Below, in pieces: positions 34,409 through 64,000 of a stretch of DNA of 64,000 nt (within the stretch, counting starts at the first letter, position 1; each line of letters opens with the position of its first letter). The notes under the pieces were generated by a model that was not told where the DNA came from, made no database searches, and saw nothing but the letters and a program-made list of their open reading frames with translations. The DNA lies in IMG/VR virus record IMGVR_UViG_3300023284_001318, positions 600 to 64,599 of that record. One strand, 5' to 3'. Source of the DNA: a virus. Both the position numbers and the translations under genes were made by a program.

Positions 34409-36108
34409 TGGCAGCAACCCTACCCACAAGTGACGTAGATGTATCCCTACCGTGGACTCTAGGAAGTCCACCGGGGTCGGTCATCAACGTAGATGCCGAC
34501 CATGGAGCTAATTTTCAGACTGCTATTAATAACGTCAGTCCTGGGGATGAGATTGAGTTGACTGCGGGTCAGACGTACACGGGGACATTTGCTATCGAAG
34601 ACACCACAGCAGACGGAACAGACTGGATCATTATTCGCACCAGTGCCCACGCTTCTCTGCCGGCTTTGGGAGACTCAAGGGTCCATCCGTCTGATGCCTC
34701 AAACATGGCAAAGATTGAAACCAACTCTATTGGGAGTACCCCGCTTTTTAGAGTTGATCTTGCCGCAAAAAAGGTTCGCTTTGTTGGAATAGAGTTTTCA
34801 AACACCAACACAGGTACTACTGATCGTGGGAGCCAACTGCTGATAGTTGGTAGAAATAGTGGCGGCGGTAGTCCAACTCTGGAGAGCGACTTGGCTGATG
34901 GGATTATCGTTGATCGGTGTTACATGCACGGAACTACCGTGGGAAGTCAACGAGAAGGGATACTTGTCAACGCTAAAAACTTTGCCGTTATTCACTCTTA
35001 CATTGACGACATACACGACAACAAAGGAGTTGGAAATGACGTTCAATGTGTGTTCCTGAACTTGGGCAGTGGCCCTCATCTAATTGATAACAACGAACTA
35101 CGGGGCAGTGATGAGCCAATTATGATGGGTGACAATCCCGTGTTAAGTGGTACAGCGTGGAAGATTCCTTCTAATGCGACCATAACCAGAAACTATATAC
35201 ACATTCCCACGGATGCTTATTTTGATACATTTCGCGCCAAGAATCTTATGGAGTTCAAAGACTGCTTTCAGGTTTTAGTCGAAGGAAACTGGTTTGAGCG
35301 AATGAGTGATGTTGCCGCTCAAGACGGTTCTATTGTATTGCCTGGTAGTACGCGGGGTGATGGGGATAGAACCGACGATATTACTATTCGATATAATGTT
35401 TTTGAGAACGCCCATAAGGGGCCAAAATTCAATCCAGCAGACTCCAACACTTCAATCCTTCGTATGGATTTTCACGATAATTTACTTATCGGAATACGAG
35501 ATTATCACTTCTCGATTAGTGCTGGAGGGACTGGAAGCGTAAACGAGGACTACAATATTACTCATAACACCTGCATGGGGGTAGGTGCTGGTGACATGCT
35601 TAATCGTGTTCTCTTTTGGCTCTCTTTAGTTGCTGCAAACGATGGTTTCATTTTCATGGATAATATTTGTCAAGATAAGTCAACGGCTGGTGCAAACGAA
35701 GGAATGTGGATGAGTGGTAAACAGTCCGGCTTTGACTCATTTAGCAACGCTACAAGCGGAACAAGCGAAGTGAACAATAACATCATAATAGATAGTCGCG
35801 GCGCTGTTGTGTGGGAGAACAACACAAACTTTGGCGACAGGGCAGATTTTGGTCATAGGCTTATTCAGATTGCTGCGGTCAATTTCGCAGGTGGCTCCAC
35901 GCCTGCCACCGTAGCAGACCATGCACTCACAGCAGGAAGTCAATACTCATCTACCGGAGCAGATCCAGCCACAGATGGCAAAGACATGGGCGCGGACATT
36001 GCGACTCTACTTACAAAGATAGACGGAGCAAAGAGCGGCGTGTGGGCGGCTACTATTGTTGTCCTCACCGAAGCAGACCTGGAGCCTTTGAGAGGGGTAA
36101 TAGGGTAG
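34408..36108 (+). CDS. right-handed beta-helix (pectin-lyase-like) tailspike/depolymerase
   Basis: repeating I.IDRCY.H, V.HSYI.DI, LIDNNEL, ITRNYI, VLVEGNWF strands. Confidence 0.75.
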   Translation: MAATLPTSDVDVSLPWTLGSPPGSVINVDADHGANFQTAINNVSPGDEIELTAGQTYTGTFAIEDTTADGTDWIIIRTSAHASLPALGDSRVHPSDASNMAKIETNSIGSTPLFRVDLAAKKVRFVGIEFSNTNTGTTDRGSQLLIVGRNSGGGSPTLESDLADGIIVDRCYMHGTTVGSQREGILVNAKNFAVIHSYIDDIHDNKGVGNDVQCVFLNLGSGPHLIDNNELRGSDEPIMMGDNPVLSGTAWKIPSNATITRNYIHIPTDAYFDTFRAKNLMEFKDCFQVLVEGNWFERMSDVAAQDGSIVLPGSTRGDGDRTDDITIRYNVFENAHKGPKFNPADSNTSILRMDFHDNLLIGIRDYHFSISAGGTGSVNEDYNITHNTCMGVGAGDMLNRVLFWLSLVAANDGFIFMDNICQDKSTAGANEGMWMSGKQSGFDSFSNATSGTSEVNNNIIIDSRGAVVWENNTNFGDRADFGHRLIQIAAVNFAGGSTPATVADHALTAGSQYSSTGADPATDGKDMGADIATLLTKIDGAKSGVWAATIVVLTEADLEPLRGVIG

Positions 36109-36761
36109 TCAATGAGTTATGTGAGGCCCACTGATCCGATCTTAGATGGCTGGTATATAATACGTGAAGAGATAGGCAAGTTAAACTTATATCAGATGCC
36201 ATGTAAGTGTGGCGGACCAATCGAGTTGACTAGAGAACAGGTAACAAAACTAAGAGATATTTTCACTGAATATTTAGAGGATTCTCAAAACATAGAGCAA
36301 TTGAAACATGGCAATTGAACACAGCTTAATGACACACGTTCACAATATTGTAATAATATTAGCATCTCTCGTCTTGACGGGGATTCTTTTTAGTCTAGTA
36401 CGAGATATAATTCAATCATTAAGACAACAATGGAAATGGAAACATGGCGAGTGAACACAATTTAATCAATCACCGCCCTTGGTGGCACAGGACTAATAGG
36501 GTACAACGTAATCCCTTTGATCCAGTTGAGCTAACTCAACATCTGGAATGGTGTAGAACTTGTAAGATGGACGTGGATGTCCAGGTTGAAGCTGCAAATG
36601 CTGGAGGCGTAGATGTTTATAGGAAGCGGTGTAAGAGATGTGGGGGTGTGATGCAGCATGGAATAGCTAGAAGATTCGTAACGGCAGAAAATAAAAAACC
36701 GTTACCAAGAAAAGCGTGGGAATTTATTAAACAATTAGGAAGAGATAGGAGGTAAGGTCAA

Positions 36762-37229
36762 ATGGGTAAATATTCGTTGGATGCAAAGGATCACACAACA
36801 CATGCTTCAAGTATTTTTCCTGCATGTGCAATAGTAATGGCAGCGGGTGAAGCTGCAGAGATAGTAGAGATGATAATGAGCGGATCTGGAGTTACGGCGG
36901 CGGCTGATACTCAGCATGACGCTAGAGGCACGCACTCTACCAATGCGGGTGCTGGTACAAGCACGGCTCAGACAGCTAATCTGTGGGATGACAGATCGGC
37001 GGCATCAAACGCAGTAGGCTCTGTGTTGTATACCGCAGTGCCTACAACTGTTGACACCGTTCATGATGTGACCTTTGGGTTTAACCAGCGTGGTGGCATG
37101 AGATGGGCTGTTCCTCGCGGAGAGGGAATCAGGGTCAACGGTGATGACGCGAAACTTGCCTACCGCTGGTCGGTTCTATCGGTCGCCGCCGGTAAGGTGA
37201 ACGGAAATATACATTGGTGGGAACCGTGA
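36762..37229 (+). CDS. virion structural protein (putative)
   Basis: Ala/Thr-rich ORF in the structural module. Confidence 0.5.
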   Translation: MGKYSLDAKDHTTHASSIFPACAIVMAAGEAAEIVEMIMSGSGVTAAADTQHDARGTHSTNAGAGTSTAQTANLWDDRSAASNAVGSVLYTAVPTTVDTVHDVTFGFNQRGGMRWAVPRGEGIRVNGDDAKLAYRWSVLSVAAGKVNGNIHWWEP

Positions 37230-62725: not shown

Positions 62726-63421
62726 ATGGACGGATTATGGACGGAATATGATGTAGTATGGACCTTTGTAAGAAAATTATGTGGGTCTGTACCTGGAAAT
62801 CCAGATTTATTAGAAACGGTTTTGAAGGCCCGAGCACCAAAGGTAAGACCCCCTGGCGGAAAAAGCATTCCTGAAATTCAGGAAGAAATAATCGCTACCT
62901 TAGAAGAAGGCGAAGAAGAGCCTGCCGTTAATGTTTTCCAAAAAGTAAACGGTTCTGTGGTCATGCGATCAGATAGCGTTAGGGCGCATATTAAAGAATG
63001 TGCCCGAATTGTTACTTGGCATTATGTGGGGTATGTTCAAGGCGAAAAGTCCCTGACAGCCCGAACAAAAAACTGTGTGTATGTAGGCGATTCTGACAAT
63101 TACTTCATACCGATTTTGCGGCCAGACGGTAAATTAGTCTCAGACCATGATGGGCGAATAACTAAACCCATGCACAGTACGGATCAAAGGGGTCGGCCAG
63201 TTAATGCTATTAAGACATTCGAGTGGGTAGAACCAGCAAGGCTCGATTTTCATCTTAAAGTATTTGGTGGAGCGGTTAAACTGGATGATCTTAAAACTAT
63301 CATGGAATATGGTAGCGTTCATGGATTTGGCGGTGAGAGGTCGGCAGGGGAGGGGAAATATATCTTTAAAATCATTGAAAGGAGAAATGACCATGGCAGA
63401 AAAACAGCGAAAAAGGCTTAG
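62726..63421 (+). CDS. solitary Cas7-like RAMP (RRM-fold) protein
   Basis: N-terminal strand YDVVWTFVRKLCGS.P, helix SDSVRAHIKECAR, thumb-like hairpin, C-terminal G-rich loop YGSVHGFGGERSAGEGKY. Confidence 0.8.
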   Translation: MDGLWTEYDVVWTFVRKLCGSVPGNPDLLETVLKARAPKVRPPGGKSIPEIQEEIIATLEEGEEEPAVNVFQKVNGSVVMRSDSVRAHIKECARIVTWHYVGYVQGEKSLTARTKNCVYVGDSDNYFIPILRPDGKLVSDHDGRITKPMHSTDQRGRPVNAIKTFEWVEPARLDFHLKVFGGAVKLDDLKTIMEYGSVHGFGGERSAGEGKYIFKIIERRNDHGRKTAKKA

Positions 63422-63635
63422 GACTATTTCAGAGATTAGTGAGGCTTATGAGGATCTCTACAATAAACAAATGGTTGGCGACATTGACTCTAAAGCGGTC
63501 GACGGCATCAACACAACACTTAAAGGTGTTACCTACCTGAATGCAAAATTGAAGATGGACGCTGCTAAGTTGGTGCTTCAGGCTAGGATTAAAAAAATCA
63601 GCTTGCCGGACAATTTGCTGCCAGATATCAGTTGA
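63393..63635 (+). CDS. 80-aa helical protein between the RAMP gene and the array
   Basis: AGGAGA RBS; overlaps the 3' end of the RAMP gene. Confidence 0.65.
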   Translation: MAEKQRKRLRTISEISEAYEDLYNKQMVGDIDSKAVDGINTTLKGVTYLNAKLKMDAAKLVLQARIKKISLPDNLLPDIS

Positions 63636-63637
63636 GT

Positions 63638-64000
63638 TGTAGTCGAGGTGTGTGTTGTTAGTGAATTGACCCGTGATGAAGTCGAGGATTGCTCCGACGT
63701 GCCGGGGGGTGCTTTGACCTGTAGTGAAGTCGAGTCACGAGGTGCCGTGGACTTTCTTGTTGTGGCCTGAAGTCGAGTTGCGTTCTGTCCTGTTGTGAAT
63801 TGTTATGTAAGGAAGTCGAGGGTTGAGTTGGGGTGTCATTGTTTGTGATGATTTGAAGTCGAGGCATGGGTTGCCCTGTGATGGCATGGGATGGGGTGAA
63901 GTCGAGCTATGGGGTGTCGTGCACTTCTGTGAAGTGAAGTCGAGGATTGTGGTGGGCTGTTACGGAATGTTGTGAAATGAAGTCGAGTAATGGGGCGAAA
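63638..64000 (+). repeat. array of TGAAGTCGAG delimiters with 5-nt-periodic (YG-NNN)n interiors; truncated by the window end
   Basis: delimiters at 63638, 63677, 63725, 63768, 63811, 63854, 63897, 63935 and 63978; periods 39, 48, 43, 43, 43, 43, 38, 43. Confidence 0.92.

What the first reader, a model, noticed from the sequence alone, without database searches (positions are those of the whole stretch)
63638..63987. Two-level periodicity in the terminal array: the delimiter is itself two pentamers
TGAAG|TCGAG fits the same 5-nt register and is followed by a constant 3-nt offset. The interior triplets are almost all different, so this is not slippage satellite DNA and not protein-coding (the period is not 3). 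Whole-pentamer gains and losses suggest register-preserving recombination or selection for an integer number of protein subunits per RNA.
Basis: partly seen in the sequence, partly recalled or inferred. Interest (0 to 1): 0.7.

Follow-up and report, generated by a model that had tools for sequence, protein, structure and literature searches.

The report
Punctuated VIPR guide-RNA array in phage
The two-level repeat is the guide-RNA gene array of a phage VIPR system (a CRISPR-like RNA-guided DNA silencer first described in 2026): each 5-base step probably seats one Cas7-like protein subunit, and a short in-step mark (YG-NMG-YC-GAG) followed by a 3-base jump of phase separates the short guides.

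Summary
The array has 12 delimiters and 11 units of 38-48 nt, and runs about 107 nt past the window end. Its periods are 5 (z 7.6) and 43 (z 11).

The 231-aa gene just upstream is a Cas7-like RAMP. A broad profile of its family aligns with the published SUSP1 Vipr family (hhalign 94%, E 1e-7). This makes the locus a VIPR system: vipr, a small accessory gene, and a vrRNA array.

It differs from the published type in two ways. The fixed part of each pentamer is YG and three letters are free, instead of GGY/NN. There is no structured 3' tail.

In 53 related phage loci and one MAG locus:
- the arrays lie on the vipr strand;
- the interiors are hypervariable;
- 66% of 466 distinct units have length 3 mod 5;
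- 213 of 271 phase breaks are a 13-nt gap holding N-M-G-Y-CGAG.

One guide shared by three relatives, read as contiguous triplets, spells the antisense of the E[ND]FADKW motif of CBASS cyclase genes. No target was found for this window's own guides.

The scan has met VIPR variants on other DNA before. Verdict: a new variant of a known kind.

The parts
62726..63421 (+). vipr: 231-aa single-RRM RAMP (Cas7-like) with the C-terminal G-loop HGFGGERSAGEGKY
   Evidence: AlphaFold2 model with pLDDT 82.8. Foldseek top PDB hits are the type VII Cas7, Csm3 and Cas7-11 (E 4e-7). A family profile against the SUSP1 Vipr family gives hhalign 94.3%, E 9.8e-8. No Pfam or PHROG hit.
63393..63635 (+). vap-like accessory gene: 80-aa ORF of unknown function; its start overlaps the vipr 3' end by 29 nt, and its stop lies 4 nt before the first delimiter
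   Evidence: ORF and ribosome-binding site read from sequence. A homolog lies beside vipr in at least 17 related loci by tblastn. No Pfam family. No similarity to SUSP1 vap1.
63640..64000 (+). vrRNA array: 8 complete units plus the start of the ninth. It continues for 107 nt beyond the window, for 11 units in all.
63640..63647 (+). First delimiter, the variant GTAGTCGAG (its last base falls on 63647-63648), directly after the vap stop codon
63648..63686 (+). Unit 1, 39 nt (one extra base in one step)
63687..63734 (+). Unit 2, 48 nt; homologous to unit V1 of the related phage L003
63735..63777 (+). Unit 3, 43 nt
63778..63820 (+). Unit 4, 43 nt
63821..63863 (+). Unit 5, 43 nt
63864..63906 (+). 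Unit 6, 43 nt; every step is TG
63907..63944 (+). Unit 7, 38 nt; homologous to unit V5 of L003
63945..63987 (+). Unit 8, 43 nt
63988..64000 (+). Start of unit 9 (39 nt), cut by the window end. Units 10 and 11 (38 and 43 nt) follow in the record. A VRR-NUC-like ORF starts inside unit 11.

Best explanation
The array is the guide-RNA (vrRNA) gene array of a VIPR system carried by an uncultured 65-kb phage.

Shown here:
- The upstream 231-aa protein is a Cas7-like RAMP homologous to Vipr.
- The protein, a small accessory gene and a same-strand array with a 5-nt period travel together in dozens of phages.
- The pentamer has two fixed letters (Y, G) and three free ones.
- Units are separated by an in-register mark TG-NMG-YC-GAG, followed by a +3 jump of phase.
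- Unit lengths are quantised in steps of 5.

Inferred from the published SUSP1 structures:
- The array is transcribed with vipr-vap.
- Vipr protomers line up on the RNA, one per pentamer. They hold the YG and present the free letters to DNA.
- Unit length therefore changes by whole subunits.

Inferred from anatomy only:
- The delimiter replaces the structured 3' tail of published vrRNAs. The G anchor is lost (YC), and the next YG lies 8 nt on instead of 5, so a filament cannot run across it.
- Each 38-48-nt unit would then become its own short filament of about 6-9 protomers.
- The exposed CGAG is the likely cutting or capping site.

Target reading (partly shown, in relatives only): three DNA bases per pentamer, the same 5:3 ratio as canonical VIPR. 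The third free letter (n3) sits opposite the codon wobble base that the canonical system skips, and is probably paired with it.
For: - Periodicity and register.
- RAMP fold.
- Homology to the SUSP1 Vipr family: hhalign 94.3%, E 9.8e-8, over 127 columns from helix 1 through the thumb to the G-loop.
- Family size: 1,207 clusters at 50% identity with E<=1e-3.
- Strand: a strict TG test finds arrays on the vipr strand in 40 of 60 loci and none on the opposite strand.
- Hypervariable interiors and turnover of whole units with order kept: U2=V1, U7=V5, U11=V7.
- No selected RNA structure: MFE z +0.88. No Rfam family.
- Published mechanism: one protomer per repeat; non-canonical units NNNGG, YNNNG, NNNNG, TGH/NN.
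- G-loop alignment: SUSP1 D177 and W178, the readers of G1 and G2, align with Gly203 and Glu204 here, while R179 aligns with the invariant R205.
- Guide function in relatives: a guide conserved in L025, L028 and L034, read contiguously, has 14 exact 21-nt hits, and 9 of the 13 metagenome hits lie in CBASS cyclase genes at one motif.
- Codon-phase signals: the G+C of n3 tracks locus G+C with slope 1.69, against 0.57 for n2 and 0.01 for n1. Codon-usage score in frames r1 and f2 exceeds permuted triplets by z 2.95 and 3.6.
Against: - No RNA data: transcription, processing sites and binding are all inferred.
- No promoter-like site was found by the simple scan.
- The fixed motif (YG) and the missing tail depart from the characterised type II system.
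- The first two homology tests were weak.
- Two of the 11 units break the x5 rule by +1.
- No target was found for any guide of this window.
- Whether n3 pairs is unsettled: permuting n3 gives z 1.5.
- A skip-1 reading of the same conserved guide also gave one exact hit, in a terminase gene.
Confidence: 0.85

Rival explanations
1. This is a VIPR array, but it is read by the published rule. Only n1 and n2 pair, one DNA base per pentamer is skipped, and n3 belongs to a sequestered trinucleotide (N-Y-G) without taking part in recognition.
For: - n3 is G-biased across the family (0.48), unlike n1 and n2, as expected for a relic of the canonical G1.
- The target period of 3 and the wobble alignment fit this rule as well as they fit contiguous reading.
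- Permuting n3 does not significantly lower the coding score (z 1.5).
Against: - With a median of 7 steps, NN-only guides would specify only about 14 nt, and 10 nt for 33-nt units. Published guides specify 18-32 nt.
- The conserved guide matches its cyclase targets at all 7 n3 positions, including the two that are not G. These hits were selected by an exact search, so this point is weak.
- Between homologous units, n3 changes no faster than n1 or n2 (read).
- In this window n3 is not G-rich (0.30).
Confidence: 0.35
2. This is a CRISPR-like mini-array. The RAMP is a Cas6-type endoribonuclease that cuts at the short repeat, and the interiors are ordinary spacers used by some other effector.
For: The C-terminal motif GhG-x5-GxG and the size of about 230 aa resemble Cas6. 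A conserved His88/Lys90 pair lies on helix 1.
Against: - The best structural matches are Cas7, Csm3 and Cas7-11 backbone subunits, not Cas6.
- The family profile is homologous to Vipr.
- Ordinary spacers would not carry a fixed YG every 5 nt.
- No other cas genes were seen in the gene lists.
- The repeats are only 9-10 nt long and form no hairpin.
Confidence: 0.06
3. This is a DNA-level element: iterons of a replication origin, or a packaging site that binds a ring-shaped protein, with TG/CA steps every half turn of the helix.
For: - In this phage the array lies between replication genes: an SNF2 helicase upstream, then a VRR-NUC-like ORF and a primase-like gene.
- In L004 and L006 it lies near terminase genes.
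Against: - Its position relative to replication and packaging genes varies. The only constant neighbours are vipr and vap.
- It is always on the vipr coding strand, with strong G+T strand bias.
- The interiors are hypervariable between close relatives.
- One guide spells a conserved motif of a host gene.
Confidence: 0.03
4. This is a decoy or sponge RNA. A long UG-periodic transcript titrates a host or rival RNA-binding protein, for example a rival phage's Vipr or a TRAP-like ring, without guiding anything.
For: The October 2026 VIPR preprint reports satellite-encoded solo vrRNAs that redirect a phage's VIPR to decoy sites (its section heading is shown). TRAP is a known precedent for 5-nt-periodic RNA binding (my own knowledge).
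Against: - The array sits beside its own vipr in every locus examined.
- A sponge has no need for hypervariable interiors, quantised units or delimiters.
- There is a conserved guide-target match.
Confidence: 0.03

Closest known systems
VIPR systems, type II of Escherichia phage SUSP1 and the Pseudomonas fulva prophage (bioRxiv 10.64898/2026.04.26.720920 and .720927)
   Same: - Phage-borne minimal locus: a single RAMP gene, a small accessory gene and same-strand arrays with a 5-nt period.
- Fixed letters alternate with hypervariable ones.
- The G/T-rich RNA strand.
- The protein families are homologous.
- The published structure has one protomer per pentamer, which explains the length steps of 5.
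   Different: - The fixed part is YG (T 0.80, C 0.14; G 0.98) with three free letters, instead of GGY with two.
- Units have 5-11 steps instead of 9-16.
- There is no tail of about 40-60 nt and no pseudoknot; a 10-nt in-register mark plus a +3 phase jump takes its place.
- The accessory protein is unrelated to vap1.
- The SUSP1 residues that read the guanines (D177, W178) are replaced by Gly and Glu.
Non-canonical VIPR repeat units (NNNGG, YNNNG, NNNNG in 10.64898/2026.04.26.720920; GAC/NN, CAC/NN, WGT/NN, TGH/NN in 10.64898/2026.10.21.760802) and 'staggered' tail-less arrays (fig. S18 of the first paper)
   Same: These papers say in print that some VIPR clades use other pentamers, and that some arrays have vrRNAs abutting one another. 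This family may be one of them; TGH/NN and NNNNG are the nearest descriptions.
   Different: The figures and tables are not held, so identity cannot be checked. The texts at hand do not mention a YG-NNN unit with a free first letter, a CGAG mark, a +3 phase jump or quantised unit lengths. The second paper says its non-canonical motifs repeat 10 times; here the run is 4-9 before each mark.
Class 1 CRISPR effector backbones (Cas7, Csm3, Cmr4) on crRNA
   Same: The RAMP fold, G-loop and thumb are shared, and these are the top structural matches. One subunit binds per fixed RNA step, and a base is flipped out at each step. Type III crRNAs are known to differ in length by whole steps of 6 nt (my own knowledge).
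   Different: - The step is 5 nt, not 6.
- The anchor letters are written into the guide itself.
- There are no long repeats, no Cas6 hairpin, no cas1/cas2 and no other cas genes.
- The array is encoded by a phage.
VIPR variants noted earlier in this scan on other genomes (for example a GA-NNN array said to read without a skipped base, and guides spelling motifs of restriction genes)
   Same: Same kind of system. The same idea applies: three free letters may be read contiguously, and guides spell conserved motifs of host defence genes.
   Different: Those are different protein clades and different fixed letters. They are unchecked AI notes and were used here only as leads.

Membership tests
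VIPR system | Vipr protein: a single-RRM RAMP with G-loop and thumb, lacking the second RRM of CRISPR RAMPs | tested here: met
   AlphaFold2 model of 231 aa with pLDDT 82.8. Foldseek probability 1.0 to the type VII Cas7, Csm3 and Cas7-11. BFVD hit named 'RAMP superfamily protein' from a siphovirus. The G-loop HG[YF]xGER..G.G[KR]Y is invariant.
VIPR system | Sequence homology to an experimentally characterised Vipr (SUSP1 YP_009199429.1) | tested here: met
   Narrow profile against the single sequence: E 0.07. Narrow profile against the SUSP1-family profile: E 0.021, probability 2%. Broad profile of 56 sequences against the SUSP1-family profile: probability 94.3%, E 9.8e-8, 127 columns.
VIPR system | Tandem 5-nt repeats with fixed and hypervariable positions, flanking vipr on its own strand | tested here: met
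   The same holds in 53 IMG/VR loci and one MAG locus.
VIPR system | Canonical repeat GGY/NN | tested here: not met
   The repeat is YG plus NNN. Published papers allow 'a related consensus', so this places the array as a variant, not outside the class.
VIPR system | Adjacent vipr-accessory (vap) gene | tested here: met
   An 80-aa ORF is conserved beside vipr in at least 17 loci. It is unrelated in sequence to SUSP1 vap1, and its function was not tested.
VIPR system | Invariable structured 3' tail (a pseudoknot in the SUSP1 clade) capping each vrRNA | tested here: not met
   Only a 9-10-nt delimiter lies between units. The array folds no better than shuffles (z +0.88). No Rfam match. Tail-less 'staggered' arrays are mentioned in print.
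VIPR system | Mostly viral or proviral location | tested here: met
   The window is a 65-kb IMG/VR record with terminal repeats. 53 relatives lie on viral contigs.
VIPR system | vrRNAs are expressed and co-purify with Vipr | not testable with these tools
   This needs small-RNA sequencing and a pull-down.
VIPR system | Non-contiguous target reading: two paired bases, then one skipped (three DNA bases per pentamer) | tested here: inconclusive
   Three DNA bases per pentamer is supported in relatives. Whether the third base is skipped or paired by n3 is open. No target was found for this window's guides.
CRISPR array | Direct repeats of about 23-50 nt separating unrelated spacers, with cas1/cas2 or effector cas genes nearby | tested here: not met
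   The delimiter is 9-10 nt. The interiors carry a fixed dinucleotide every 5 nt. No other cas-family hits were seen among the neighbouring genes scanned.

The most novel reading that the evidence does not exclude
This large Vipr clade (about 1,200 protein clusters) may use a gap-free version of the VIPR code. It keeps five RNA letters per three DNA letters. The first letter of the sequestered trinucleotide has been freed (the SUSP1 G1 reader Asp177 aligns with Gly here), and it pairs with the base that canonical VIPR skips. Each pentamer would then read a full triplet. This would be a step between the gapped VIPR code and the near-contiguous pairing of CRISPR Cas7 backbones. On this reading, guides are punctuated by a loss of anchor plus a phase jump (YC-GAG, +3) instead of a folded tail, and at least some guides silence host anti-phage genes such as CBASS cyclases instead of rival phages.
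Probability: 0.35. Interest if true: 0.75.

Novelty: new variant of a known kind. Interest (0 to 1): 0.55.

Why it matters
VIPR has been in print only since April 2026, and only the GGY/NN, tail-capped type has been characterised.

This clade gives a simple, checkable grammar for finding guide boundaries from sequence alone: YG steps, then the TG-NMG-YC-GAG mark, then a +3 jump. It covers a family of more than a thousand protein clusters. The grammar suggests that a phase break can do the job of a folded cap.

If the third free letter pairs, the clade would show how a gapped code could become contiguous while the filament geometry stays the same. That bears on the proposed VIPR-to-CRISPR path and on engineering: 21-24 informative bases would fit in a 43-nt guide.

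The cyclase-matching guide, if real, would extend the natural targets of VIPR from rival mobile elements to host immunity genes. No paper in the held library links VIPR with CBASS.

Tried and rejected
- Tandem Repeats Finder does not see the array.
- Rfam at permissive thresholds finds nothing.
- Pfam, PHROGs and a tblastn of cultured phages find nothing for the RAMP.
- Single-sequence and narrow-profile comparisons with SUSP1 Vipr were too weak to use. Only the broadened profile worked.
- BLASTP of the accessory protein against SUSP1 vap1 gave nothing.
- Target searches for this window's guides all failed:
  - Unit 6, as contiguous triplets and with one skipped base: no IMG/VR hit.
  - Unit 8, contiguous: none.
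  - Unit 3, contiguous 18-mer: two hits that do not extend to the first triplet, consistent with chance.
- All about 290 family guides were tested against 40 related loci, the window's genome and five complete carrier genomes under eight reading rules. Nothing rose above shuffled controls, including phages from the same metagenome.
- The skip-1 reading of the conserved guide hit one terminase gene. No other guide hit that contig, and it has no homology to the carriers. I treat it as probable chance.
- No second guide matches the cyclase loci.
- Stop-codon depletion in frame r0 turned out to be a general shortage of Y-A at n2n3, not a coding signal.
- Iteron, packaging-site, Cas6 mini-array and sponge readings were considered and ranked low (see the rival explanations).
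- The host could not be inferred: the best cultured relative of the helicase is only 30% identical.

Full report
**The observation**

The last 360 nt of the window hold nine copies of (T)GAAGTCGAG. The window is bases 600-64599 of a 65,083-bp IMG/VR virus record with 144-bp terminal repeats.

In the full record the array has 12 delimiters and 11 units of 39, 48, 43, 43, 43, 43, 38, 43, 39, 38 and 43 nt. It ends 107 nt beyond the window, where a small VRR-NUC-like ORF begins inside the last unit.

Autocorrelation against shuffles peaks at lag 5 (z 7.6), 10, 33, 38, 43 (z 11) and 48. Written out, each unit is NNN (YG NNN)k TG-AAG TC-GAG. The delimiter is two more steps of the same 5-nt register, the second with YC instead of YG. 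The next unit begins without a YG, which shifts the phase by +3.

Two units are 39 nt and carry one extra base. The window cuts the array.

**The neighbouring genes**

Directly upstream lie a 231-aa ORF (62726-63421) and an overlapping 80-aa ORF (63393-63635). Neither has a significant Pfam or PHROG match.

The 231-aa protein has 39 close relatives in metagenomes. They share invariant His88, Lys90 and a C-terminal glycine-rich loop. Its AlphaFold2 model (pLDDT 82.8) matches Cas7-type backbone subunits of type VII, III-A and III-E CRISPR effectors (Foldseek E about 4e-7). It also matches phage proteins named RAMP.

**What is in print**

VIPR systems (bioRxiv 10.64898/2026.04.26.720920, read) consist of:
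- a phage-encoded minimal RAMP (Vipr);
- an accessory gene (vap);
- vrRNAs built of GGY/NN pentamers followed by a structured tail.

The companion cryo-EM paper (10.64898/2026.04.26.720927) shows one Vipr protomer per pentamer. The GGY is sequestered, the NN pairs with DNA, and every third DNA base is skipped.

The papers also mention other units (NNNGG, YNNNG, NNNNG) and tail-less "staggered" arrays. A later preprint lists GAC/NN, CAC/NN, WGT/NN and TGH/NN (10.64898/2026.10.21.760802). Their figures and tables are not held.

**Membership**

I located the SUSP1 locus by its GGYNN runs and took Vipr (YP_009199429.1) from the record.
- The narrow family profile against that one sequence was weak (E 0.07).
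- It was also weak against a 31-sequence profile of the SUSP1 clade (E 0.021).
- An exhaustive profile search then found 1,207 clusters. A 56-sequence profile that includes distant members aligned with the SUSP1 clade at 94.3% probability, E 9.8e-8, over 127 columns running from helix 1 through the thumb to the G-loop.

In that alignment SUSP1 Arg179 matches the invariant Arg205. The two residues that read the guanines, Asp177 and Trp178, match Gly203 and Glu204. This fits a changed fixed motif, but it is an inference from one alignment.

The locus meets the defining features of a VIPR system except for the canonical GGY/NN unit and the structured tail.

**The family rule**

A profile scan of IMG/VR gave 53 loci, and a scan of genomes gave one MAG. 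Further contigs came from exact look-ups.
- A strict TG-every-5 test found arrays on the vipr strand in 40 of 60 loci and none on the other strand.
- Over 466 distinct units, the interior pentamer is Y (T 0.80, C 0.14), G (0.98), then n1 and n2 with flat composition, then n3 with G at 0.48.
- The last ten bases of a unit are T-G-N-(C/A)-G-Y-C-G-A-G.
- Unit length is 3 mod 5 in 307 units (66%) and 4 mod 5 in 66.
- Without using the delimiter at all, 213 of 271 breaks between in-phase YG runs are 13-nt gaps. The bases between the runs are N-M-G-Y-CGAG-NNN, with CGAG at 98-100%.

The letters before CGAG differ by clade: AAGT/C, ACGC/T, CCGT, CCTT/ACTT, ACGG. That pattern would be expected if a co-evolving protein reads the mark.

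The array RNA has no selected fold (z +0.88) and no Rfam match.

**Turnover**

The nearest relative, L003, has a Vipr that is 84% identical and uses the same delimiter. It shares only three units with the window (U2=V1, U7=V5, U11=V7). These are in the same order, with unrelated units between and after them.

Across the family, homologous units are rare outside near-identical contigs. Their length differences were 0, 5, 5 and 10, plus one 1-nt indel; a 7-nt difference for one window-L003 pair reflects an internal CGAG that split the L003 unit in that parse.

I saw no clear polarity of unit gain. Differences occur at the vap-proximal end, in the middle and at the far end.

**How it probably works**

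By homology with the solved complex, each YG is the anchor for one protomer and the free letters face the target. A guide can therefore only grow or shrink by whole subunits.

The delimiter is my inference. The anchor G is replaced by C, and the next anchor is 8 nt away instead of 5. A filament should stop there, leaving CGAG exposed for cutting or capping. In this way a 10-nt mark could do the work of the 40-60-nt tail of type II vrRNAs.

The +1 class of units (14%) suggests that one 6-nt step can be tolerated.

**The reading rule**

Local tests found no targets above shuffled controls. These covered all guides against all held loci and six complete phage genomes under eight rules. Four IMG/VR scans with this window's guides also failed.

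One guide is conserved in three otherwise different arrays (L025, L028, L034).
- Read as contiguous triplets, it has one exact 21-nt hit in IMG/VR and 13 in metagenome contigs.
- Nine of the 13 lie in CD-NTase (CBASS cyclase) genes: PADLOC Cyclase down to E 1e-118, with Pfam SMODS, DncV-like NTase and AGS_C.
- All nine are antisense, at the conserved motif E[ND]FADKW, in at least seven different sequence contexts.
- All eight hits of the TTT variant are cyclases.
- The same guide read with one skipped base hit a terminase gene once. Nothing else supports that hit.

In the cyclase match n1 and n2 face codon positions 2 and 1, and n3 faces the wobble base of the neighbouring codon.

Family statistics agree with three DNA bases per pentamer in that phase:
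- The G+C of n3 follows locus G+C with slope 1.69 (r 0.78), against 0.57 for n2 and 0.01 for n1.
- Codon-usage scores of the two frames that share those codon boundaries exceed triplet-permuted controls (r1 z 2.95, f2 z 3.6). The other two cross-triplet frames do not.
- Cross-triplet stop codons are fewer than in permuted controls (231 against 263, z -2.4).

Whether n3 truly pairs is not settled (z 1.5 on n3 permutation).
- For pairing: the short guides would otherwise specify only 10-14 nt, and n3 changes no faster than n1 or n2 between homologous units.
- Against pairing: the G bias of n3 could be a relic of the canonical first G.

**Novelty and verdict**

The class is known, and the scan has met other VIPR variants on other DNA. 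The following are not described in the texts I could read:
- the YG-NNN unit with a fully free first letter;
- the family-wide CGAG mark with its +3 phase jump;
- the quantised short guides.

The published figures may already cover this clade, and I could not check them. No held paper links VIPR to CBASS.

I rate this a new variant of a known kind.

Noticed in passing
L025:4218-4260, L028:2729-2771, L034:4414-4456 (guides); L095-L107 and L087 (hits): A guide conserved in three related phage arrays (CAC TTG TCG GCG AAG TYT TCG), read as contiguous triplets, matches 14 contigs exactly. Nine of the 13 metagenome hits are CBASS CD-NTase cyclase genes, antisense, at the motif E[ND]FADKW. This suggests a phage VIPR guide aimed at a host defence gene.
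   Followed up: yes
L088:2342-2368 (IMGVR_UViG_3300031867_000639): The same guide read with one skipped base per triplet matches a terminase large-subunit gene exactly (27-nt span), just after the Walker A motif. It is a single hit with no support from other guides, and is probably chance.
   Followed up: partly
L008:2015-2640 and L008:3355-3700: The most distant relative fetched (37% identity) has arrays on both sides of vipr. Downstream, very short units of 18 and 20 nt alternate, and the mark is CCGGG instead of CGAG.
   Followed up: no
G005 (contig of L017) 35331-37133: One 44-kb phage carries about 1.8 kb of array in five abutting blocks with more than 40 units, far more guides than the four of SUSP1.
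   Followed up: no
window-equivalent 64067-64393 (L001:2268-2594): A 98-108-aa ORF with a weak VRR-NUC match (E 3.5e-4, below the Pfam cut-off) starts inside the last array unit. The array is therefore packed tightly between vap and the next gene, and no terminator-like site follows it.
   Followed up: partly
L109:3493-3510 (IMGVR_UViG_3300012943_000009): Window unit 3, read contiguously, matches 18 of 21 letters near the 3' end of an open frame on the opposite strand (...AAAKESGLARREI...). The first triplet does not match, so the hit cannot be told from chance.
   Followed up: partly
family-wide (units of 39, 44, 49, 54, 59 nt); window units 1 and 9: The second commonest length class is 4 mod 5 (66 of 466 units), caused by one extra base inside a single step. 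An occasional 6-nt step seems to be tolerated.
   Followed up: partly
L013-L016:1107-1344 and L043:1966-2453: Some relatives carry an additional array upstream of vipr, like the single upstream vrRNA of SUSP1.
   Followed up: no
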